From NCBI GenBank assembly GCA_964016885.1, contig OZ024744.1:87668001-87732000 (forward strand): 64,000 nucleotides of DNA, given 5' to 3'. This DNA comes from Eledone cirrhosa (taxonomy: Eukaryota). A model generated the notes under the pieces. It saw nothing but the letters and a program-made list of their open reading frames with translations. It was not told the origin of the DNA and made no database searches. A program made the position numbers and the translations under genes. Below, piece after piece: positions 3,001 to 64,000 of the stretch (position 1 is its first letter; each line of letters starts with the position of its first letter).

Positions 3001-6000
3001 CACCAAAGTGTCTCTATCTCCCTTGTACCTATCTATTGTTGTTGTTGTTACCATCTCTCCCTTCAACAGTAGGTACCAACAGTGACACCAAAGTGTCTCT
3101 ATCTCCCTTGTACCTATCTATTGTTGTTGTTGTTACCATCTCTCCCTTCAACAGTTGGTACCAACAGTGACACCAAAGTGTCTCTATCTCCCTTGTTCCT
3201 ATCTATTGTTGTTGTTACCATCTCTCCCTTCAACAGTTGGTACCAACAGTGACACCAAAGTGTCTCTATCTCCCTTGTTCCTATCTATTGTTGTTGTTGT
3301 TACCAACTCTCCCTTCAACAGTTGGTACCAACAGTGACACCAAAGTGTCTCTATCTCCCTTGTTCCTATCTATTGTTGTTGTTGTTGTTACTATCTCTCC
3401 CTTCAACAGTTGGTACCAACAGTGACACCAAAGTGTCTCTATCTCCCTTGTTCCCATCTATTGTTGTTGTTGTTACCATCTCTCCCTTCAACAGATGGTA
3501 CCAACAGTGACACCAAAGTGTCTCTATCTCCCTTGTTCCTATCTATTGTTGTTGTTGTTACCATCTCTCCCTTCAACAGTAGGTACCAACAGTGACACCA
3601 AAGTGTCTCTATCTCCCTTGTTCCTATCTATTGTTGTTGTTACCATCTCTCCCTTCAACAGTTGGTACCAACAGTGACACCAAAGTGTCTCTATCTCCCC
3701 TGTTCCTATCTATTGTTGTTGTTGTTACCATCTCTCCCTTCAACAGTTGGTACCAACAGTGACACCAAATTGTCTCTATATCCCTTGTTCCTATCTATTG
3801 TTGTTGTTACCATCTCTCCCTTCAACAGTTGGTACCAACAGTGACACCAAAGTGTCTCTATCTCCCCTGTTCCTATCTATTGTTGTTGTTGTTACCATCT
3901 CTCCCTTCAACAGTTGGTACCAACAGTGACACCAAAGTGTCTCTATCTCCCTTGTTCCTATCTATTGTTGTTGTTACCATCTCTCCCTTCAACAGTTGGT
4001 ACCAACAGTGACACCAAAGTGTCTCTATCTCCCCTGTTCCTATCTATTGTTGTTGTTGTTACCATCTCTCCCTTCAACAGTTGGTACCAACAGTGACACC
4101 AAAGTGTCTCTATCTCCCATGTTCCTATCTATTGTTGTTGTTGTTACCATCTCTCCCTTCAACAGTTGGTACCAACAGTGACACCAAAGTGTCTCTATCT
4201 CCCTTGTTCCTATCTATTGTTGTTGTTGTTACCATCTCTCCCTTCAACAGTAGGTACCTGCAGTGACACCAAAGTGTCTCTATATCCCTTGTTCCTATCT
4301 ATTGTTGTTGTTGTTACCATCTCTCCCTTCAACAGTTGGTACCAACAGTGACAGCAAAGTGTCTCTATATCCCTTGTTCCTATCTATTGTTGTTGTTGTT
4401 ACTATCTCTCCCTTCAACAGTTGGTACCAACAGTGACACCAAAGTGTCTCTATCTCCCTTGTTCCCATCTATTGTTGTTGTTGTTACCATCTCTCCCTTC
4501 AACAGTTGGTACCAACAGTGACACCAAAGTGTCTCTATCTCCCTTGTTCCTATCTATTGTTGTTGTTGTTACCATCTCTCCCTTCAACAGTTGGTACCAA
4601 CAGTGACACCAAAGTGTCTCTATCTCCCTTGTTCCTATCTATTGTTGTTGTTACCATCTCTCCCTTCAACAGTTGGTACCAACAGTGACACCAAAGTGTC
4701 TCTATCTCCCTTGTTCCTATCTATTGTTGTTGTTGTTACCATCTCTCCCTTCAACAGTTGGTACCAACAGTGACAGCAAAGTGTCTCTATCTCCCTTGTT
4801 CCTATCTATTGTTGTTGTTGTTACCATCTCTCCCTTCAACAGTTGGTACCAACAGTGACACCAAAGTGTCTCTATCTCCCTTGTTCCTATCTATTGTTGT
4901 TGTTGTTACCATCTCTCCCTTCAACAGTTGGTACCAACAGTGACACCAAAGTGTCTCTATCTCCCTTGTTCCTATCTATTGTTGTTGTTGTTACCATCTC
5001 TCCCTTCAACAGTTGGTACCAACAGTGACACCAAAGTGTCTCTATCTCCCTTGTTCCTATCTATTGTTGTTGTTACCATCTCTCCCTTCAACAGTTGGTA
5101 CCAACAGTGACACCAAAGTGTCTCTATCTCCCTTGTTCCTATCTATTGTTGTTGTTGTTACCATCTCTCCCTTCAACAGTAGGTACCAACAGTGACACCA
5201 AAGTGTCTCTATCTCCCTTGTTCCTATCTATTGTTGTTGTTACTATCTCTCCCTTCAACAGTTGGTACCAACAGTGACACCAAAGTGTCTCTATCTCCCT
5301 TGTTCCTATCTATTGTTGTTGTTGTTACCATCTCTCCCTTCAACAGTAGGTACCAACAGTGACACCAAAGTGTCTCTATCTCCCTTGTTCCTATCTATTG
5401 TTGTTGTTGTTACCATCTCTCCCTTCAACAGTTGGTACCAACAGTGACACCAAAGTGTCTCTATCTCCCTTGTTCCTATCTATTGTTGTTGTTGTTACCA
5501 TCTCTCCCTTCAACAGTAGGTACCAACAGTGACACCAAAGTGTCTCTATCTCCCTTGTTCCTATCTATTGTTGTTGTTACTATCTCTCCCTCCAACAGTT
5601 GGTACCAACAGTGACACCAAAGTGTCTCTATCTCCCTTGTTCCCATCTATTGTTGTTGTTGTTACCATCTCTCCCTTCAACAGATGGTACCAACAGTGAC
5701 ACCAAAGTGTCTCTATCTCCCTTGTTCCTATCTATTGTTGTTGTTACTATCTCTCCCTCCAACAGTTGGTACCAACAGTGACACCAAAGTGTCTCTATCT
5801 CCCTTGTTCCTATCTATTGTTGTTGTTGTTACTATCTCTCCCTTCAACAGTTGGTACCAACAGTGACACCAAAGTGTCTCTATCTCCCTTGTTCCTATCT
5901 ATTGTTGTTGTTGTTACCATCTCTCCCTTCAACAGTTGGTACCAACAGTGACACCAAAGTGTCTCTATATCCCTTGTTCCTATCTATTGTTGTTGTTGTT

Positions 6001-26526: not shown

Positions 26527-28300
26527 ATAAGTATGTACACGTACATACATATATGTATACAGACGTACAGTAGTATATATATATATATATATACATACAT
26601 GCACACATATATATATATGTACGTATGGATTCACCGAACATTTATTATAATGCTCGGTGTGTTTGTAAACAAACATCCCCTATTAAGCCGTAGTGTCCAG
26701 CAACCATCGTTGCTCGTTTGTTCAACACTGACAAAGGAACGCTGCACAAGTTTCAAGCTTATTAGCTATCGTCAGCAACGTATATTTTCCTGCCAAATTG
26801 TTGAACGTATATACTTACCCTATGCATATTAACGGCTGATTTGCCCAATTTGCATATCGAGTGGGTTAATTGGCCGTCTGCACCGAAAACGATTGACGGA
26901 AAAGATGAAATGAAATGAAATTTCCGACTCTTAGTACGGCTGTTACTTAAATATAAGTATGTACACGTACATACATATATGTATACAGACGTATAGTAGT
27001 ATGTATATATATATACTTACATGCACACATATATATATACATATGTACGTATGGATTCACCGAACATTTATTATAAAGTTCGGTGTGTTTGTAAACAAAC
27101 ATCCCGTATTAAGCCGTAGTGTCTAGCAACCATCGCTGCTCGTTTGTTCAACACTGACAAAGGAACGCTGTATTAGTTTCAAGATTATTAGCTATCGTCA
27201 GCAACGTATACCTTCCTGCCAGATTGTTGAACGTATATACTTACCCTATGCATATTAACGGCTGATTAGCCCAATTTGCATATTGAGTGGGTTAATCGGC
27301 CGGGTGCACCGAAAACGATAAACGGAAAAAATGAAACGAAATTTCATTTCCCACTCTTAGTACGGCTGTTACTTAAGTATAAGTATGTACACGTACATAC
27401 ATATATGTATACAGACGTATAGTAGTATGTATATATATATACATACATGCACACATATATATATGTACGTATGGATTCACCGAACATTTATTATAATGCT
27501 CGGTGTGTTTGTAAACAAACATCCCGTATTAAGCCGCAGTGTCTAGCAACCATCGTTGCTCGTTTGTTCAACACCGACAAAGGAATTTCGTTTCATTTTT
27601 TCCGTTTATCGTTTTCGGTGCACCCGGCCGATTAACCCACTCGATATGCAAATTGGGCTACTCAGCCGTTAATATGCATAAGGTAAGTATATACGTTCAA
27701 CAATCTGGCAGGAAGGTATACGTTGCTGACGATAGCTAATAAGCTTGAAACTAGTACAGCGTTCATTTGTCAGTGTTGAACAAACGAGCAACGATGGTTG
27801 CTAGACACTACGGCTTAATACGAGATGTTTGTTTACAAACACACCGAGCATTATAATAAATGTTCGGTGAATCCATACGTAGATATATATATGTGTGCAT
27901 GTATGTATATATATATAAATACATACTACTATACGTCTGTATACATATATGTATGTACGTGTACATCCTTATATTTAAGTAACAGCCGTACTAAGAGTGG
28001 GAAATGAAATTTCGTTTCATTTCTTCAGTTTATCGTTTTCGGTGCACGCGGCCAATTAATCCACTCGATATGCAAATTGGGCTACTCAGCCGTTAATATG
28101 CATAAGGTAAGTATATACGTTCAACAATCTGGCAGGAAGGTATACGTTGCTGACGATAACTAATAAGCTTGAAACTAGAACAGCGTTCCTTGTCTACTAT
28201 ACGTATGTATACACATATGTATGTACGTGTACATATTTATATTTAAGTAACAACCGTTCTAAGAGTGGGAAATGAAATTTCGTTTCATTTTTTCCGTTTA
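26527..28300. repeat. Short array of ~426-bp hammerhead-containing units (retrozyme-like), orientation switch at ~27,583
   Basis: ATAAGTATGTACACG recurs at ~26,527, ~26,953 and ~27,379. After ~27,583 the same sequence appears reverse-complemented. Homologous to the 489-bp unit at 54-64 kb (GAAATTTCGTTTCATT, GCAAATTGGGCT, CAAGCTT..AGCTATC, TGTTCAACACTGAC). Confidence 0.92.
27720..27762 (+). ncRNA. Minimal type I hammerhead ribozyme (426-bp family, intact copy)
   Basis: ACGTTG-CTGACGA-tAGCT aata AGCTt-GAAA-CTAGTA^CAGCGT: intact CUGANGA/GAAA/GUA core, helix I ACGTTG/CAGCGT, palindromic helix III ACTAGT. Mutated sister copies at ~26,739-26,781 (-), ~27,165-27,207 (-) and ~28,144-28,186 (+). Confidence 0.85.
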
Positions 28301-28332
28301 TATATATGTACATATATATGTATATATATGTG

Positions 28333-35070: not shown

Positions 35071-35194
<124 letters not shown>

Positions 35195-35199
35195 ATTAT

Positions 35200-35904
35200 T
35201 TATGTATACGTGCATACATATATGTATACAGACGTACAGTAGCATGTATATATATACATACAGGCACACATATATATATATGCACGTATTAGTTTACCGA
35301 ACATTTATTATAATGCTCGGTTTGTTCGTTTGTAAACAAACAAACAGCCTGAATTACGCCGTACGTCTGTATACATATATGTATGTACGTATACATACAT
35401 ACTTGCATTTAAGTAAGTGCCGTACTAAGAGTGAGAAATGAAATTTCGTTTCATTCTATTCCATTTATCGTTTTCGGTGCGCCTGGCCGACTGAACTCAC
35501 TCGATATGCAAATTAGGCTGCTCAGCCGTTAATTTTCATGAGGAAAGTATAGACTTTCGGACGTTCAACCATCTGGCAGAAAGGTATACGGTGCTGACGA
35601 TAGCTAATAAGCTTGAAACTATTACATCGGTCCTGTGTCAGTGTTGAACAAAAAGGTGACATGGTTGCCTAAACACTGTACGGCGTAATTCAGGCTGTTT
35701 GTTTGTTTACAAACGAACAAACCGAGCATTATAATAAATGTTCGGTAAACTGATACGTGCATATATATATGTGTGCCTGTATGTATATATATACATGCTA
35801 GTGTACGTCTGTATACATATATGTATGTACGTATACATACATACTTGCATTTAAGTAAGTGCCGTACTAAGAGTGAGAAATGAAATTTCGTTTCATTCTA
35901 TTCC

Positions 35905-35910
<6 letters not shown>
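35200..35910. repeat. Third locus of the 426/489-bp hammerhead repeat family (short inverted part plus ~1.1 units)
   Basis: 35,200-35,358 in one orientation, 35,360-35,910 in the other. HHR ACGGTG-CTGACGA-tAGCT aata AGCTt-GAAA-CTATTA-CATCG at ~35,588-35,629 (+), helix III mutated. Confidence 0.88.
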
Positions 35911-53444: not shown

Positions 53445-53544
53445 GGAAAACTACACACACACAGAGAGACAGAAAAAGAGAGGGAGGGGAAAGAGGGAGA
53501 TAGGCCATTAGACAGAGAGACATACAATTAAAGTGTTAGTTATA

Positions 53545-54090
<546 letters not shown>

Positions 54091-54093
54091 ATT

Positions 54094-54130
<37 letters not shown>

Positions 54131-54144
54131 ATATAAATATACTT

Positions 54145-54181
<37 letters not shown>

Positions 54182-54313
54182 AATATATATATATATAGTT
54201 GAAAAAAAATGAAAACGAAATTTCATTTCTCACTCTTAGTATGGCACTTACTTAAATGTAAGTATGTATGTATACGTACATACATATATGTATACAGACG
54301 TACAGTAGCATGC

Positions 54314-54350
<37 letters not shown>

Positions 54351-54521
54351 TACACATATGCATACAGGTACACATACATATATGCACGCATCAGTTTAGC
54401 CTACGTTTATTATAACGCCGGCCGCTTTGTTCGTTTGTTTGTCAACAAAGCGAACAGCCTGAATTTATGCCATACGGTGTTAAGGCAACCACGTCACCTT
54501 TTTGTTCAACACTGACACAGG

Positions 54522-54566
54522 AACGATGTACTAGTTTCAAGCTTGTTAGCTATCATCAGCACCGTT
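54522..54566 (-). ncRNA. Minimal type I hammerhead ribozyme, first of 13 minus-strand copies (last at 60,391-60,435)
   Basis: Reverse complement reads AACGGTG-CTGATGA-TAGCTAACAAGCTT-GAAA-CTAGTA^CATCGTT. Confidence 0.9.
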
Positions 54567-54804
54567 TACCCATCTGCCAGATAGTTGAACATTCGAAAGT
54601 ATATACTTTCCTTATGAAAATTAACGGCTGAGCAGCCTAATTTGCATATTGAGTGAGTTAAATCGGTCAGGCATACCGAAAACGATTAGTTGAAAAAAAA
54701 TGAAAACGAAATTTCATTTCTCACTCTTAGTATGGCACTTACTTAAATGTAAGTATGTATGTATACGTACATACATATATGTATACAGACGTACAGTAGC
54801 ATGC

Positions 54805-54839
<35 letters not shown>

Positions 54840-55293
54840 TACACATATGCATACAGGTACACATACATATATGCACGCATCAGTTTAGCCTACGTTTATT
54901 ATAACGCCGGCCGCTTTGTTCGTTTGTTTGTCAACAAAGCGAACAGCCTGAATTTATGCCATACGGTGTTAAGGCAACCACGTCACCTTTTTGTTCAACA
55001 CTGACACAGGAACGATGTACTAGTTTCAAGCTTGTTAGCTATCATCAGCACCGTTTACCCATCTGCCAGATAGTTGAACATTCGAAAGTATATACTTTCC
55101 TTATGAAAATTAACGGCTGAGCAGCCTAATTTGCATATTGAGTGAGTTAAATCGGTCAGGCATACCGAAAACGATTAGTTGAAAAAAAATGAAAACGAAA
55201 TTTCATTTCTCACTCTTAGTATGGCACTTACTTAAATGTAAGTATGTATGTATACGTACATACATATATGTATACAGACGTACAGTAGCATGC

Positions 55294-55328
<35 letters not shown>

Positions 55329-55782
55329 TACACATATGCATACAGGTACACATACATATATGCACGCATCAGTTTAGCCTACGTTTATTATAACGCCGGC
55401 CGCTTTGTTCGTTTGTTTGTCAACAAAGCGAACAGCCTGAATTTATGCCATACGGTGTTAAGGCAACCACGTCACCTTTTTGTTCAACACTGACACAGGA
55501 ACGATGTACTAGTTTCAAGCTTGTTAGCTATCATCAGCACCGTTTACCCATCTGCCAGATAGTTGAACATTCGAAAGTATATACTTTCCTTATGAAAATT
55601 AACGGCTGAGCAGCCTAATTTGCATATTGAGTGAGTTAAATCGGTCAGGCATACCGAAAACGATTAGTTGAAAAAAAATGAAAACGAAATTTCATTTCTC
55701 ACTCTTAGTATGGCACTTACTTAAATGTAAGTATGTATGTATACGTACATACATATATGTATACAGACGTACAGTAGCATGC

Positions 55783-55817
<35 letters not shown>

Positions 55818-56271
55818 TACACATATGCATACAGGTACACATACATATATGCACGCATCAGTTTAGCCTACGTTTATTATAACGCCGGCCGCTTTGTTCG
55901 TTTGTTTGTCAACAAAGCGAACAGCCTGAATTTATGCCATACGGTGTTAAGGCAACCACGTCACCTTTTTGTTCAACACTGACACAGGAACGATGTACTA
56001 GTTTCAAGCTTGTTAGCTATCATCAGCACCGTTTACCCATCTGCCAGATAGTTGAACATTCGAAAGTATATACTTTCCTTATGAAAATTAACGGCTGAGC
56101 AGCCTAATTTGCATATTGAGTGAGTTAAATCGGTCAGGCATACCGAAAACGATTAGTTGAAAAAAAATGAAAACGAAATTTCATTTCTCACTCTTAGTAT
56201 GGCACTTACTTAAATGTAAGTATGTATGTATACGTACATACATATATGTATACAGACGTACAGTAGCATGC

Positions 56272-56306
<35 letters not shown>

Positions 56307-56761
56307 TACACATATGCATACAGGTACACATACATATATGCACGCATCAGTTTAGCCTACGTTTATTATAACGCCGGCCGCTTTGTTCGTTTGTTTGTCA
56401 ACAAAGCGAACAGCCTGAATTTATGCCATACGGTGTTAAGGCAACCACGTCACCTTTTTGTTCAACACTGACACAGGAACGATGTACTAGTTTCAAGCTT
56501 GTTAGCTATCATCAGCACCGTTTACCCATCTGCCAGATAGTTGAACATTCGAAAGTATATACTTTCCTTATGAAAATTAACGGCTGAGCAGCCTAATTTG
56601 CATATTGAGTGAGTTAAATCGGTCAGGCATACCGAAAACGATTAGTTGAAAAAAAAATGAAAACGAAATTTCATTTCTCACTCTTAGTATGGCACTTACT
56701 TAAATGTAAGTATGTATGTATACGTACATACATATATGTATACAGACGTACAGTAGCATGC

Positions 56762-56796
<35 letters not shown>

Positions 56797-57250
56797 TACA
56801 CATATGCATACAGGTACACATACATATATGCACGCATCAGTTTAGCCTACGTTTATTATAACGCCGGCCGCTTTGTTCGTTTGTTTGTCAACAAAGCGAA
56901 CAGCCTGAATTTATGCCATACGGTGTTAAGGCAACCACGTCACCTTTTTGTTCAACACTGACACAGGAACGATGTACTAGTTTCAAGCTTGTTAGCTATC
57001 ATCAGCACCGTTTACCCATCTGCCAGATAGTTGAACATTCGAAAGTATATACTTTCCTTATGAAAATTAACGGCTGAGCAGCCTAATTTGCATATTGAGT
57101 GAGTTAAATCGGTCAGGCATACCGAAAACGATTAGTTGAAAAAAAATGAAAACGAAATTTCATTTCTCACTCTTAGTATGGCACTTACTTAAATGTAAGT
57201 ATGTATGTATACGTACATACATATATGTATACAGACGTACAGTAGCATGC

Positions 57251-57285
<35 letters not shown>

Positions 57286-57739
57286 TACACATATGCATAC
57301 AGGTACACATACATATATGCACGCATCAGTTTAGCCTACGTTTATTATAACGCCGGCCGCTTTGTTCGTTTGTTTGTCAACAAAGCGAACAGCCTGAATT
57401 TATGCCATACGGTGTTAAGGCAACCACGTCACCTTTTTGTTCAACACTGACACAGGAACGATGTACTAGTTTCAAGCTTGTTAGCTATCATCAGCACCGT
57501 TTACCCATCTGCCAGATAGTTGAACATTCGAAAGTATATACTTTCCTTATGAAAATTAACGGCTGAGCAGCCTAATTTGCATATTGAGTGAGTTAAATCG
57601 GTCAGGCATACCGAAAACGATTAGTTGAAAAAAAATGAAAACGAAATTTCATTTCTCACTCTTAGTATGGCACTTACTTAAATGTAAGTATGTATGTATA
57701 CGTACATACATATATGTATACAGACGTACAGTAGCATGC

Positions 57740-57774
<35 letters not shown>

Positions 57775-58228
57775 TACACATATGCATACAGGTACACATA
57801 CATATATGCACGCATCAGTTTAGCCTACGTTTATTATAACGCCGGCCGCTTTGTTCGTTTGTTTGTCAACAAAGCGAACAGCCTGAATTTATGCCATACG
57901 GTGTTAAGGCAACCACGTCACCTTTTTGTTCAACACTGACACAGGAACGATGTACTAGTTTCAAGCTTGTTAGCTATCATCAGCACCGTTTACCCATCTG
58001 CCAGATAGTTGAACATTCGAAAGTATATACTTTCCTTATGAAAATTAACGGCTGAGCAGCCTAATTTGCATATTGAGTGAGTTAAATCGGTCAGGCATAC
58101 CGAAAACGATTAGTTGAAAAAAAATGAAAACGAAATTTCATTTCTCACTCTTAGTATGGCACTTACTTAAATGTAAGTATGTATGTATACGTACATACAT
58201 ATATGTATACAGACGTACAGTAGCATGC

Positions 58229-58263
<35 letters not shown>

Positions 58264-58718
58264 TACACATATGCATACAGGTACACATACATATATGCAC
58301 GCATCAGTTTAGCCTACGTTTATTATAACGCCGGCCGCTTTGTTCGTTTGTTTGTCAACAAAGCGAACAGCCTGAATTTATGCCATACGGTGTTAAGGCA
58401 ACCACGTCACCTTTTTGTTCAACACTGACACAGGAACGATGTACTAGTTTCAAGCTTGTTAGCTATCATCAGCACCGTTTACCCATCTGCCAGATAGTTG
58501 AACATTCGAAAGTATATACTTTCCTTATGAAAATTAACGGCTGAGCAGCCTAATTTGCATATTGAGTGAATTAAATCGGTCAGGCATACCGAAAACGATT
58601 AGTTGAAAAAAAAATGAAAACGAAATTTCATTTCTCACTCTTAGTATGGCACTTACTTAAATGTAAGTATGTATGTATACGTACATACATATATGTATAC
58701 AGACGTACAGTAGCATGC

Positions 58719-58753
<35 letters not shown>

Positions 58754-59207
58754 TACACATATGCATACAGGTACACATACATATATGCACGCATCAGTTT
58801 AGCCTACGTTTATTATAACGCCGGCCGCTTTGTTCGTTTGTTTGTCAACAAAGCGAACAGCCTGAATTTATGCCATACGGTGTTAAGGCAACCACGTCAC
58901 CTTTTTGTTCAACACTGACACAGGAACGATGTACTAGTTTCAAGCTTGTTAGCTATCATCAGCACCGTTTACCCATCTGCCAGATAGTTGAACATTCGAA
59001 AGTATATACTTTCCTTATGAAAATTAACGGCTGAGCAGCCTAATTTGCATATTGAGTGAGTTAAATCGGTCAGGCATACCGAAAACGATTAGTTGAAAAA
59101 AAATGAAAACGAAATTTCATTTCTCACTCTTAGTATGGCACTTACTTAAATGTAAGTATGTATGTATACGTACATACATATATGTATACAGACGTACAGT
59201 AGCATGC

Positions 59208-59242
<35 letters not shown>

Positions 59243-59695
59243 TACACATATGCATACAGGTACACATACATATATGCACGCATCAGTTTAGCCTACGTTT
59301 ATTATAACGCCGGCCGCTTTGTTCGTTTGTTTGTCAACAAAGCGAACAGCCTGAATTTATGCCATACGGTGTTAAGGCAACCACGTCACCTTTTTGTTCA
59401 ACACTGACACAGGAACGATGTACTAGTTTCAAGCTTGTTAGCTATCATCAGCACCGTTTACCCATCTGCCAGATAGTTGAACATTCGAAAGTATATACTT
59501 TCCTTATGAAAATTAACGGCTGAGCAGCCTAATTTGCATATTGAGTGAGTTAAATCGGTCAGGCATACCGAAAACGATTAGTTGAAAAAAATGAAAACGA
59601 AATTTCATTTCTCACTCTTAGTATGGCACTTACTTAAATGTAAGTATGTATGTATACGTACATACATATATGTATACAGACGTACAGTAGCATGC

Positions 59696-59730
<35 letters not shown>

Positions 59731-60184
59731 TACACATATGCATACAGGTACACATACATATATGCACGCATCAGTTTAGCCTACGTTTATTATAACGCCG
59801 GCCGCTTTGTTCGTTTGTTTGTCAACAAAGCGAACAGCCTGAATTTATGCCATACGGTGTTAAGGCAACCACGTCACCTTTTTGTTCAACACTGACACAG
59901 GAACGATGTACTAGTTTCAAGCTTGTTAGCTATCATCAGCACCGTTTACCCATCTGCCAGATAGTTGAACATTCGAAAGTATATACTTTCCTTATGAAAA
60001 TTAACGGCTGAGCAGCCTAATTTGCATATTGAGTGAGTTAAATCGGTCAGGCATACCGAAAACGATTAGTTGAAAAAAAATGAAAACGAAATTTCATTTC
60101 TCACTCTTAGTATGGCACTTACTTAAATGTAAGTATGTATGTATACGTACATACATATATGTATACAGACGTACAGTAGCATGC

Positions 60185-60219
<35 letters not shown>

Positions 60220-60673
60220 TACACATATGCATACAGGTACACATACATATATGCACGCATCAGTTTAGCCTACGTTTATTATAACGCCGGCCGCTTTGTT
60301 CGTTTGTTTGTCAACAAAGCGAACAGCCTGAATTTATGCCATACGGTGTTAAGGCAACCACGTCACCTTTTTGTTCAACACTGACACAGGAACGATGTAC
60401 TAGTTTCAAGCTTGTTAGCTATCATCAGCACCGTTTACCCATCTGCCAGATAGTTGAACATTCGAAAGTATATACTTTCCTTATGAAAATTAACGGCTGA
60501 GCAGCCTAATTTGCATATTGAGTGAGTTAAATCGGTCAGGCATACCGAAAACGATTAGTTGAAAAAAAATGAAAACGAAATTTCATTTCTCACTCTTAGT
60601 ATGGCACTTACTTAAATGTAAGTATGTATGTATACGTACATACATATATGTATACAGACGTACAGTAGCATGC

Positions 60674-60710
<37 letters not shown>

Positions 60711-60738
60711 TACACATATGCATACAGGTACACATACA

Positions 60739-60773
<35 letters not shown>

Positions 60774-61011
60774 GCATGCTACTGTACGTCTGTATACATA
60801 TATGTATGTACGTATACATACATACTTACATTTAAGTAAGTGCCATACTAAGAGTGAGAAATGAAATTTCGTTTTCATTTTTTTTCAACTAATCGTTTTC
60901 GGTATGCCTGACCGATTTAACTCACTCAATATGCAAATTAGGCTGCTCAGCCGTTAATTTTCATAAGGAAAGTATATACTTTCGAATGTTCAACTATCTG
61001 GCAGATGGGTA

Positions 61012-61056
61012 AACGGTGCTGATGATAGCTAACAAGCTTGAAACTAGTACATCGTT
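61012..61056 (+). ncRNA. Minimal type I hammerhead ribozyme, first of 7 plus-strand copies (61,501; 61,990; 62,479; 62,968; 63,457; 63,946)
   Basis: Helix I AACGGTG/CATCGTT (7 bp, one G-U), core CTGATGA, helix II AGCT-aaca-AGCT, GAAA, palindromic helix III ACTAGT, GUA cleavage triplet. Confidence 0.9.
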
Positions 61057-61227
61057 CCTGTGTCAGTGTTGAACAAAAAGGTGACGTGGTTGCCTTAACA
61101 CCGTATGGCATAAATTCAGGCTGTTCGCTTTGTTGACAAACAAACGAACAAAGCGGCCGGCGTTATAATAAACGTAGGCTAAACTGATGCGTGCATATAT
61201 GTATGTGTACCTGTATGCATATGTGTA

Positions 61228-61262
<35 letters not shown>

Positions 61263-61716
61263 GCATGCTACTGTACGTCTGTATACATATATGTATGTAC
61301 GTATACATACATACTTACATTTAAGTAAGTGCCATACTAAGAGTGAGAAATGAAATTTCGTTTTCATTTTTTTTCAACTAATCGTTTTCGGTATGCCTGA
61401 CCGATTTAACTCACTCAATATGCAAATTAGGCTGCTCAGCCGTTAATTTTCATAAGGAAAGTATATACTTTCGAATGTTCAACTATCTGGCAGATGGGTA
61501 AACGGTGCTGATGATAGCTAACAAGCTTGAAACTAGTACATCGTTCCTGTGTCAGTGTTGAACAAAAAGGTGACGTGGTTGCCTTAACACCGTATGGCAT
61601 AAATTCAGGCTGTTCGCTTTGTTGACAAACAAACGAACAAAGCGGCCGGCGTTATAATAAACGTAGGCTAAACTGATGCGTGCATATATGTATGTGTACC
61701 TGTATGCATATGTGTA

Positions 61717-61751
<35 letters not shown>

Positions 61752-62205
61752 GCATGCTACTGTACGTCTGTATACATATATGTATGTACGTATACATACA
61801 TACTTACATTTAAGTAAGTGCCATACTAAGAGTGAGAAATGAAATTTCGTTTTCATTTTTTTTCAACTAATCGTTTTCGGTATGCCTGACCGATTTAACT
61901 CACTCAATATGCAAATTAGGCTGCTCAGCCGTTAATTTTCATAAGGAAAGTATATACTTTCGAATGTTCAACTATCTGGCAGATGGGTAAACGGTGCTGA
62001 TGATAGCTAACAAGCTTGAAACTAGTACATCGTTCCTGTGTCAGTGTTGAACAAAAAGGTGACGTGGTTGCCTTAACACCGTATGGCATAAATTCAGGCT
62101 GTTCGCTTTGTTGACAAACAAACGAACAAAGCGGCCGGCGTTATAATAAACGTAGGCTAAACTGATGCGTGCATATATGTATGTGTACCTGTATGCATAT
62201 GTGTA

Positions 62206-62240
<35 letters not shown>

Positions 62241-62694
62241 GCATGCTACTGTACGTCTGTATACATATATGTATGTACGTATACATACATACTTACATTT
62301 AAGTAAGTGCCATACTAAGAGTGAGAAATGAAATTTCGTTTTCATTTTTTTTCAACTAATCGTTTTCGGTATGCCTGACCGATTTAACTCACTCAATATG
62401 CAAATTAGGCTGCTCAGCCGTTAATTTTCATAAGGAAAGTATATACTTTCGAATGTTCAACTATCTGGCAGATGGGTAAACGGTGCTGATGATAGCTAAC
62501 AAGCTTGAAACTAGTACATCGTTCCTGTGTCAGTGTTGAACAAAAAGGTGACGTGGTTGCCTTAACACCGTATGGCATAAATTCAGGCTGTTCGCTTTGT
62601 TGACAAACAAACGAACAAAGCGGCCGGCGTTATAATAAACGTAGGCTAAACTGATGCGTGCATATATGTATGTGTACCTGTATGCATATGTGTA

Positions 62695-62729
<35 letters not shown>

Positions 62730-63183
62730 GCATGCTACTGTACGTCTGTATACATATATGTATGTACGTATACATACATACTTACATTTAAGTAAGTGCC
62801 ATACTAAGAGTGAGAAATGAAATTTCGTTTTCATTTTTTTTCAACTAATCGTTTTCGGTATGCCTGACCGATTTAACTCACTCAATATGCAAATTAGGCT
62901 GCTCAGCCGTTAATTTTCATAAGGAAAGTATATACTTTCGAATGTTCAACTATCTGGCAGATGGGTAAACGGTGCTGATGATAGCTAACAAGCTTGAAAC
63001 TAGTACATCGTTCCTGTGTCAGTGTTGAACAAAAAGGTGACGTGGTTGCCTTAACACCGTATGGCATAAATTCAGGCTGTTCGCTTTGTTGACAAACAAA
63101 CGAACAAAGCGGCCGGCGTTATAATAAACGTAGGCTAAACTGATGCGTGCATATATGTATGTGTACCTGTATGCATATGTGTA

Positions 63184-63218
<35 letters not shown>

Positions 63219-63672
63219 GCATGCTACTGTACGTCTGTATACATATATGTATGTACGTATACATACATACTTACATTTAAGTAAGTGCCATACTAAGAGT
63301 GAGAAATGAAATTTCGTTTTCATTTTTTTTCAACTAATCGTTTTCGGTATGCCTGACCGATTTAACTCACTCAATATGCAAATTAGGCTGCTCAGCCGTT
63401 AATTTTCATAAGGAAAGTATATACTTTCGAATGTTCAACTATCTGGCAGATGGGTAAACGGTGCTGATGATAGCTAACAAGCTTGAAACTAGTACATCGT
63501 TCCTGTGTCAGTGTTGAACAAAAAGGTGACGTGGTTGCCTTAACACCGTATGGCATAAATTCAGGCTGTTCGCTTTGTTGACAAACAAACGAACAAAGCG
63601 GCCGGCGTTATAATAAACGTAGGCTAAACTGATGCGTGCATATATGTATGTGTACCTGTATGCATATGTGTA

Positions 63673-63707
<35 letters not shown>

Positions 63708-64000
63708 GCATGCTACTGTACGTCTGTATACATATATGTATGTACGTATACATACATACTTACATTTAAGTAAGTGCCATACTAAGAGTGAGAAATGAAA
63801 TTTCGTTTTCATTTTTTTTCAACTAATCGTTTTCGGTATGCCTGACCGATTTAACTCACTCAATATGCAAATTAGGCTGCTCAGCCGTTAATTTTCATAA
63901 GGAAAGTATATACTTTCGAATGTTCAACTATCTGGCAGATGGGTAAACGGTGCTGATGATAGCTAACAAGCTTGAAACTAGTACATCGTTCCTGTGTCAG

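What the first reader, a model, noticed from the sequence alone, without database searches (positions are those of the whole stretch)
60570..60880. Array flips at ~60,724 into a >6.5-kb palindrome with divergently oriented ribozymes
Seen: the left arm ends at ...CACACATATAT (60,711), a ~26-nt spacer follows, and the right arm starts ATATATGTGTG (~60,738). The switch falls at an ATATATG microhomology, as expected for fold-back or template switching. Private left-arm variants (GAGTGAA at ~58,570; A7 at ~59,585; A9 at ~58,605) are not mirrored on the right, which argues against a simple mirrored-read artefact. Inference: this resembles the 5' inversion typical of Penelope insertions, scaled up to multimers. 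A read-through transcript would form kilobases of dsRNA, with one arm self-cleaving.
Basis: partly seen in the sequence, partly recalled or inferred. Interest (0 to 1): 0.75.

Follow-up and report, generated by a model that had tools for sequence, protein, structure and literature searches.

The report
Two-armed ribozyme retroelement insertion
This 13-kb mirror-image array is one of many similar insertions of a 489-base repeat carrying a predicted self-cutting RNA motif, and the fixed, always different outer ends of its two arms suggest that a Penelope-type jumping-gene enzyme likely copied one RNA, probably a circle, from both sides of a DNA break and joined the two copies in the middle.

Summary
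The flip is real in the assembly. The palindrome is 12,996 bp (54,196 to 67,191, past the window edge): 13.4 + 13.2 copies of a 489-bp unit with a minimal type I hammerhead, head-to-head in a (TA)n tract. The '26-nt spacer' is left-arm sequence; the arms overlap in ATATATG (60,738-60,744). The layout recurs: 101 head-to-head junctions in 134 genome stretches. The two outer ends sit at two fixed unit positions 57 nt apart (274, 331) and pair as one of each: 44 of 44 and 12 of 12 typed partners. Junction phase is random and arm lengths uncorrelated, so fold-back is not the rule and this locus's symmetry is chance-level. This is the known Penelope footprint (inversion, one-sided tail, TA target) on a non-LTR retrozyme. 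Best model: both target ends prime reverse transcription on one RNA, likely circular; the cDNAs join by microhomology. Not shown: read support for this junction, RNA, cleavage, the partner element. The scan noted the same architecture before in other retrozyme families of this genome.

The parts
54196..60744 (-). Left arm: 13.4 tandem copies of the 489-bp retrozyme unit, ribozyme sense on the minus strand; outer end at unit position 331 (with tail), inner end at position 145
60738..64000 (+). Right arm: 13.2 copies, ribozyme sense on plus; starts at unit position 178 and runs past the window to 67,191 (G000:C28:87,735,191; L001:4191), outer end at position 274 (no tail), then (TA)n
60738..60744 (.). 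7-nt microhomology ATATATG shared by both arms: the head-to-head joint
60712..60737 (-). 26-nt unpaired centre of the palindrome; ordinary left-arm sequence, not a foreign spacer
61013..61055 (+). Predicted minimal type I hammerhead, first copy of the right arm (6-bp stem I, CUGAUGA, 4-bp stem II with U.U at its base, GAAA, palindromic ACUAGU stem III); predicted cut between 61,049 and 61,050 = unit position 1
   Evidence: sequence; motif table; cleavage not tested
60392..60434 (-). The same hammerhead motif, innermost copy of the left arm
   Evidence: sequence
54196..54252 (-). 57-nt one-sided 'tail' (unit positions 275-331), present at the left outer end and absent at the right outer end
53938..54195 (.). 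(TA)n target tract at the left boundary; a (TA)n tract of about 80 nt bounds the right end; a TSD cannot be read in such a target
61184..61321 (+). Internal TA/CA microsatellite part of the unit (positions ~135-272), predicted to fold as one long hairpin that ends just before the 274 end
   Evidence: circular fold, (prediction only)
60987..60987 (+). T at unit position 427 (C in the closest other arms), carried by all 26 copies that cover this position, in both arms

Best explanation
This is a young, 13-kb head-to-head insertion of a non-coding 489-bp hammerhead repeat (a non-LTR retrozyme) in a TA microsatellite, likely made when a Penelope-type enzyme primed reverse transcription from both cut DNA ends on one RNA, probably a circle, at two fixed sites 57 nt apart, and the two cDNAs were likely joined at a 7-nt microhomology. 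Shown by sequence: unit, motif, head-to-head polarity, TA target, two fixed complementary ends, random joints with excess microhomology, arms longer than one unit, arms of a locus sharing one haplotype. Inferred: the enzyme is a Penelope-like RT/GIY-YIG protein acting in trans; both ends prime; one RNA molecule serves both; the template is circular and copied round and round (about 13 turns per arm here); the hammerhead cuts. The near-perfect symmetry of this locus is likely chance within that process.
For: Complementary ends: of 80 loci picked by a 331 end, 56 are two-armed and the far end is 274 in 44, 331 in 0, untyped in 12; of 32 picked by a 274 end, 20 are two-armed, far end 331 in 12, 274 in 0, untyped 8 (11 one-armed, 1 mis-fetched; Fisher p 2e-12). 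Over all 101 junctions, 68 of 71 with both ends typed are 274+331, 3 are 331+331. Polarity: in 32 loci not chosen by an end motif, 24 hold a head-to-head junction (27 junctions); the 4 opposite adjacencies there are 3' ends meeting at TA or TA-type microsatellite. Random phase (Rayleigh p 0.48) and uncorrelated arm lengths (rho -0.03, n=50 end-anchored) fit two independent cDNAs. Microhomology of 3+ nt in 61% of 72 direct joints vs 7% for random joints. Arms of a locus are alike: median 0 differences within vs 4.3% between loci (39 loci); focal, L013, L046, L083, L084 have both arms identical and no other fetched arm as close. 0 of 208 inner ends lie within 3 nt of the hammerhead cut (3 expected) and most 331 arms exceed 331 nt, so the template was not a cut linear monomer. 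331 arms stop in excess at positions 275-281, next to the other priming site (6 of 81 at 50-59 nt length vs ~1.1 per 10 nt, p 0.001). The genome holds RT+GIY-YIG ORFs (938 aa, L181). Literature: inversion plus one-sided tail is the PLE signature (PMC8557442, PMC3846280, passages); the tail lies between two RT start sites and both strands are cut and extended in vitro (PMC11167929, main text).
Against: No read or contig was shown to cross this junction: the tool masks it as simple repeat, and a test junction elsewhere (L013) was not bridged in 4 runs. No autonomous element sharing this unit was found among 35 GIY-YIG loci. No RNA data. The tail is 57 nt, longer than the 30-40 bp reported. This locus alone also fits fold-back (equal turns, 26-nt loop). 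Left arm has 7 deviating sites, right arm 0 (p about 0.016), unexplained; over 12 loci the arm types do not differ (37 in 59 vs 38 in 63 units). T427 is a CpG site found at 43 other places, so it is private only as part of the full haplotype. Two long older arrays show 6-7-unit higher-order periodicity, so arrays can grow after insertion. The stop pile-up at 275-281 also fits stalling at the predicted hairpin, and two multi-turn arms end there too. Microhomology may be overestimated (longest match over 149 units; 9 vs the true 7 here). Over all 68 mixed loci arm lengths correlate weakly (rho 0.25, p 0.04), driven by loci picked for many units.
Confidence: 0.66

Rival explanations
1. Same Penelope-driven, two-ended insertion, but the template was an uncut linear multimer transcript of a donor array, or the insert was short and both arms grew later by unequal exchange.
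For: Higher-order 6-7-unit periodicity in two long older arrays. PAc uses unprocessed RNA in vitro and its hammerhead needs protein (PMC11167929); 8 of 9 Xenopus retrozymes did not cleave (10.64898/2026.07.22.740005). Stops at 275-281 after several turns (C2:379.86 Mb, C3:356.48 Mb) fit twin priming on a linear multimer.
Against: No donor array with the focal haplotype and 13+ units is in the assembly: the T427 33-mer has 69 places, 26 here, the longest other run is 8 copies with other substitutions. 20 of 24 full units are identical and unit-length patterns are not shared between arms at other loci.
Confidence: 0.17
2. Fold-back (self-priming): one cDNA snapped back at ATATATG over a 26-nt loop and copied itself, giving the palindrome.
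For: This locus has equal turns (6,549 vs 6,454 bp) and a small loop; self-priming was proposed for PLE inversions (PMC3846280, Discussion passage); shared haplotype is also predicted.
Against: Near-symmetric joints are not in excess (13 of 101, 16.7 expected); arm difference of 50-140 nt in 7 of 68 vs 4.5 by permutation (p 0.15); either arm can be the long one (331 arm longer in 32 of 68; e.g. 52 vs 2,266 and 6,047 vs 1,178 bp); fold-back gives no reason for the second end to fall on a different fixed site; 7 left-arm deviations are not mirrored.
Confidence: 0.09
3. Assembly or library artefact: a fold-back chimeric read, or a mis-join of two separate arrays.
For: No read-level support could be obtained; the joint lies in a TA/CA microsatellite; the right arm has no unit variation at all, which could reflect consensus collapse.
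Against: Flanks are not mirrored; the two ends differ and are exactly the two family-typical ends; same layout at 101 junctions with one polarity, including two old diverged examples in this window; a contig of run X3 holds a strand-switch joint of this family at another phase.
Confidence: 0.07

Closest known systems
Metazoan non-LTR retrozymes (Cervera and de la Pena 2020, PMC7229834: passages and Discussion read; Li, Clavereau, Pollet 2026, 10.64898/2026.07.22.740005: parts 1-3 of 5 read, through Discussion)
   Same: Non-coding, AT-rich tandem unit of a few hundred bases with one type I hammerhead per unit, dispersed multimers, co-occurring with PLEs; short palindromic stem III and U.U at the base of stem II as in axolotl motifs; circle-templated multimer cDNA by a PLE RT is their proposed route.
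   Different: Neither text, in the parts read, describes two-armed head-to-head multimers or fixed paired ends ('inverted' occurs 0 times in PMC7229834). Circles, expression and cleavage were shown there and are untested here; homology to a pLTR was shown for Xenopus and not found here.
EN+ Penelope-like elements, inverted pLTR with one-sided tail (PMC3846280 passages; PMC8557442 passages; PMC11167929 main text)
   Same: Head-to-head inversion, extension at one end only, (TA)n/AT-rich targets, microhomology joints, two fixed 3' ends downstream of the hammerhead.
   Different: No ORF; arms are many-turn multimers of one small unit; tail 57 nt vs 30-40 bp; joints at random phase, not palindromic as in A. 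vaga; here the two ends are strictly one of each, which those texts state only as 'often at one end'.
LINE-1 twin priming (recalled; the paper was not retrievable)
   Same: Both target ends prime on one RNA; inverted 5' part joined by microhomology; head-to-head polarity.
   Different: In L1 the second site is variable and each RNA base is copied about once; here both sites are fixed and both arms cover the same sequence many times.

Membership tests
Non-LTR retrozyme | Tandem non-coding unit of about 150-1000 nt with a type I hammerhead in each unit | tested here: met
   489-bp unit, GC about 35%; CUGAnGA core intact in 148 of 149 natural units (these were picked by the GAAA-side motif, so that half is conserved by construction). 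Not called by Rfam.
Non-LTR retrozyme | Dispersed copies as monomers to multimers, no LTR | tested here: met
   736 exact 274-ends and 156 exact 331-ends genome-wide; arrays on many contigs.
Non-LTR retrozyme | Self-cleavage of the transcript | not testable with these tools
   Monomer MFE fold does not give the active shape (z 0.25); dimer or protein help would be needed.
Non-LTR retrozyme | Expressed as linear and circular monomer RNA | not testable with these tools
   No RNA run with more than 4% of the words.
Non-LTR retrozyme | Sequence relation to the pLTR of an autonomous PLE | tested here: inconclusive
   No pLTR match in 35 of >10,000 GIY-YIG candidate loci examined.
PLE-type insertion footprint | Inverted 5' segment, head-to-head | tested here: met
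   101 junctions; 56 of 80 and 20 of 31 end-anchored loci two-armed.
PLE-type insertion footprint | Tail at one end only | tested here: met
   44:0 and 0:12 partner ends; 68 of 71 overall; length 57 nt.
PLE-type insertion footprint | AT-rich or (TA)n target | tested here: met
   Both focal ends and most ends in the unanchored loci abut (TA)n.
PLE-type insertion footprint | Target-site duplication | tested here: inconclusive
   Cannot be read inside (TA)n.
Autonomous PLE | RT plus GIY-YIG ORF within the element | tested here: not met
   The whole insert is painted as the 489-bp unit; it is non-autonomous.

The most novel reading that the evidence does not exclude
These arrays are a genomic record of the unresolved Penelope integration reaction: a dimeric enzyme opens the target and hands each DNA end a different, dedicated start site on one RNA circle, both active sites roll around it, and the two cDNAs are stitched head-to-head. 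That one reaction would explain the PLE tail, the PLE inversion and retrozyme multimers together.
Probability: 0.45. Interest if true: 0.72.

Novelty: new variant of a known kind. Interest (0 to 1): 0.5.

Why it matters
How Penelope-like elements make their inverted ends and one-sided tails is stated as open (PMC8557442, PMC11167929), and retrozyme mobilisation by PLEs is proposed from co-occurrence and pLTR similarity only. The end-pairing rule, random joints and shared haplotypes give a sharp, testable model (two ends, two fixed sites, one RNA) and argue against self-priming for this family. The single junction itself is not special: it is one long, by chance symmetric, member of a common class, and the scan has seen this class in other families of the same genome.

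Tried and rejected
Rfam gathering scan: 0 hits. Read support: the focal joint is masked as simple repeat in read laying; the L013 joint was not bridged by any listed contig in X1, X2, X3, X7; these runs may be another individual or species and short unitigs are filtered, so this is inconclusive. Partner search: 20 short and 15 long GIY-YIG loci show PLE-type ORFs, some with other hammerheads, none sharing this unit apart from separate nearby insertions. A suspected 274+274 pair at C1:242.17 Mb was a same-strand duplicate. Coupled arm lengths (two enzymes stopping together, or fold-back) not supported. Run-off at the hammerhead cut not seen. T427 as a unique marker rejected: CpG site, 43 other places. 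First chaining scripts broke in the microsatellite and were replaced. Rows dropped: 3 of 104 junctions as duplicates; L053 as duplicate of L052; L169 mis-fetched. Literature searches without a hit: 'retrozyme'+'head-to-head'; 'Penelope-like, rolling circle, inverted, circular RNA, target-primed'; 'twin priming'+'Penelope' gave 3 listings, none on PLE mechanism by title (listing only). Supplements were not read (those of the bioRxiv preprint are closed; Fig. S9 of PMC7229834 and Figs S1-S2 of PMC11167929 may bear on the model).

Full report
Observation. The unit is 489 bp. With position 1 set after the predicted hammerhead cut (window 61,050), the left arm runs antisense from position 331 at 54,196 through 13 turns to position 145 at 60,744; the right arm runs sense from position 178 at 60,738 through 13 turns to position 274 at extended coordinate 67,191. 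Total 12,996 bp. The arms overlap in ATATATG; the 26-nt 'spacer' is left-arm sequence. Both outer ends abut (TA)n; the flanks share only scattered repeats and are not mirror images. The left arm has 7 deviating sites (2 substitutions, 3 A-run changes, 2 TA+2), the right arm none.

The unit. It carries ACGGUG-CUGAUGA-stem II-GAAA-CUAGUA-CAUCGU, a minimal type I hammerhead by motif, with a palindromic stem III. 148 of 149 natural units keep the CUGAnGA core (units were picked by the GAAA side). Rfam does not call it and the monomer does not fold into the active shape by MFE; activity is untested. Positions ~135-272 are a TA/CA microsatellite predicted to form a long hairpin.

The family. The genome (G000, 3.0 Gb) has 736 exact '274 + TA' ends and 156 exact '331 + TA' ends, with 0 for reversed control patterns. 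I painted 134 stretches: 104 head-to-head junctions (101 after dropping 3 duplicates) and 12 opposite adjacencies, most of them 3' ends meeting in a TA tract. Because end-anchored sampling favours head-to-head, I counted separately the 32 loci taken from the plain similarity search: 24 hold such a junction.

End rule. Of 80 loci anchored on a 331 end, 24 are one-armed and 56 two-armed; the far end is 274 in 44, 331 in 0, untyped in 12. Of 32 anchored on a 274 end, 11 are one-armed, 1 was mis-fetched, 20 are two-armed; the far end is 331 in 12, 274 in 0, untyped in 8 (Fisher p 2e-12). Over all junctions with both ends typed, 68 of 71 are one of each and 3 are 331+331. This is the PLE one-sided tail (PMC3846280, PMC8557442, passages), which in the anole element is the stretch between two RT start sites, with both target strands cut and extended (PMC11167929, main text). 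Here it is 57 nt.

Joints. Inner-end phases are uniform: 13 of 101 within 40 nt of symmetry against 16.7 expected, Rayleigh p 0.48. Arm lengths are uncorrelated in the end-anchored set (rho -0.03, n=50), weakly correlated in all 68 (rho 0.25, p 0.04), and either arm can be longer. Of 101 joints, 72 are direct and 29 carry extra or unassigned bases; 61% of the direct ones have 3+ nt microhomology against 7% by chance, an upper estimate. So the arms behave as two independent cDNAs joined by microhomology. The focal symmetry (35-nt phase offset, equal turns) is the only such case among 17 long loci, and it was picked for that look; a rough estimate puts one such case in 17 well within chance. Fold-back cannot be excluded for this one locus.

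Template. Arms of one locus are alike (median 0 differences, 4.3% between loci, 39 loci; in 13 no other arm is as close). All 26 focal copies covering position 427 carry T where the closest arms have C; the 33-mer occurs at 43 other places, none in an array over 8 copies, and that array differs at four other sites. No inner end lies within 3 nt of the hammerhead cut (0 of 208, 3 expected) and most 331 arms are longer than 331 nt. A ligated circle explains this most simply; an uncut multimer or later array growth is not excluded, and two long old arrays do show higher-order repeats.

Enzyme. The genome has over 10,000 first-look GIY-YIG candidates, and long ORFs with RT and GIY-YIG matches, several in tandem or inverted layout. 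None of 35 loci examined shares this unit as its pLTR, so the partner is unidentified.

Artefact check. Direct read support was not obtainable. Indirect evidence (unmirrored flanks, two family-typical ends, one polarity at 101 joints, two old diverged two-armed copies in this window) makes an artefact unlikely.

Comparison and verdict. It files as a non-LTR retrozyme by sequence features, with expression and cleavage untested, and it works like a PLE insertion. Two-armed multimers with paired fixed ends were not found in the papers read or in searches. Earlier notes of this scan report the same architecture for 310-, 316/318- and 592-nt families in this genome; my reading was recorded before that look-up, and no note matched this unit by sequence or place. 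Those notes are not independent evidence. Verdict: real, a new variant of a known kind, valuable for the family-level mechanism more than for this junction. Interest 0.5.

Noticed in passing
window 1-25,181: 85-bp satellite, about 299 copies, 96% matches.
   Followed up: no
window 26,527-28,307 and about 35,190-35,909: Two older, diverged two-armed insertions of the same retrozyme family, each head-to-head in TA tracts with a 331-type right end.
   Followed up: partly
window 53,541-54,001: Unrelated inverted repeat, 87% over about 470 bp, centred on a (TA)n tract and directly left of the array's target tract.
   Followed up: no
L001 about 4,280-5,020 (G000:C28:87,735,280-87,736,020): An old copy of the same family (69-81% identity) begins about 80 nt of (TA)n right of the array: the young insertion landed in the TA tract at an old element's 3' end.
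   Followed up: partly
L165+L166 (G000:C3:356.48 Mb) and L137+L167 (G000:C2:379.86 Mb): Very asymmetric insertions (29+ and 27 units against 525 and 203 bp) whose unit lengths repeat with period 6-7, suggesting later duplication or a multimeric circle; their 331 arms end at 281 and 278.
   Followed up: partly
L181:4308-7121 (-), L183:1274-4561, L182:1987-4518: Long open frames of 938, 1,096 and 844 aa with RT and GIY-YIG matches: candidate intact Penelope-like elements; L183, L184, L187, L191, L195 carry other hammerhead motifs.
   Followed up: partly
L110, L022, L134: Minimal two-armed inserts with a 274 arm of only about 10-25 nt next to a 57-69-nt tail arm.
   Followed up: partly
window 54,196-60,744 vs 60,738-67,191: All 7 unit-level deviations lie in the left arm, none in the right; unexplained.
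   Followed up: partly
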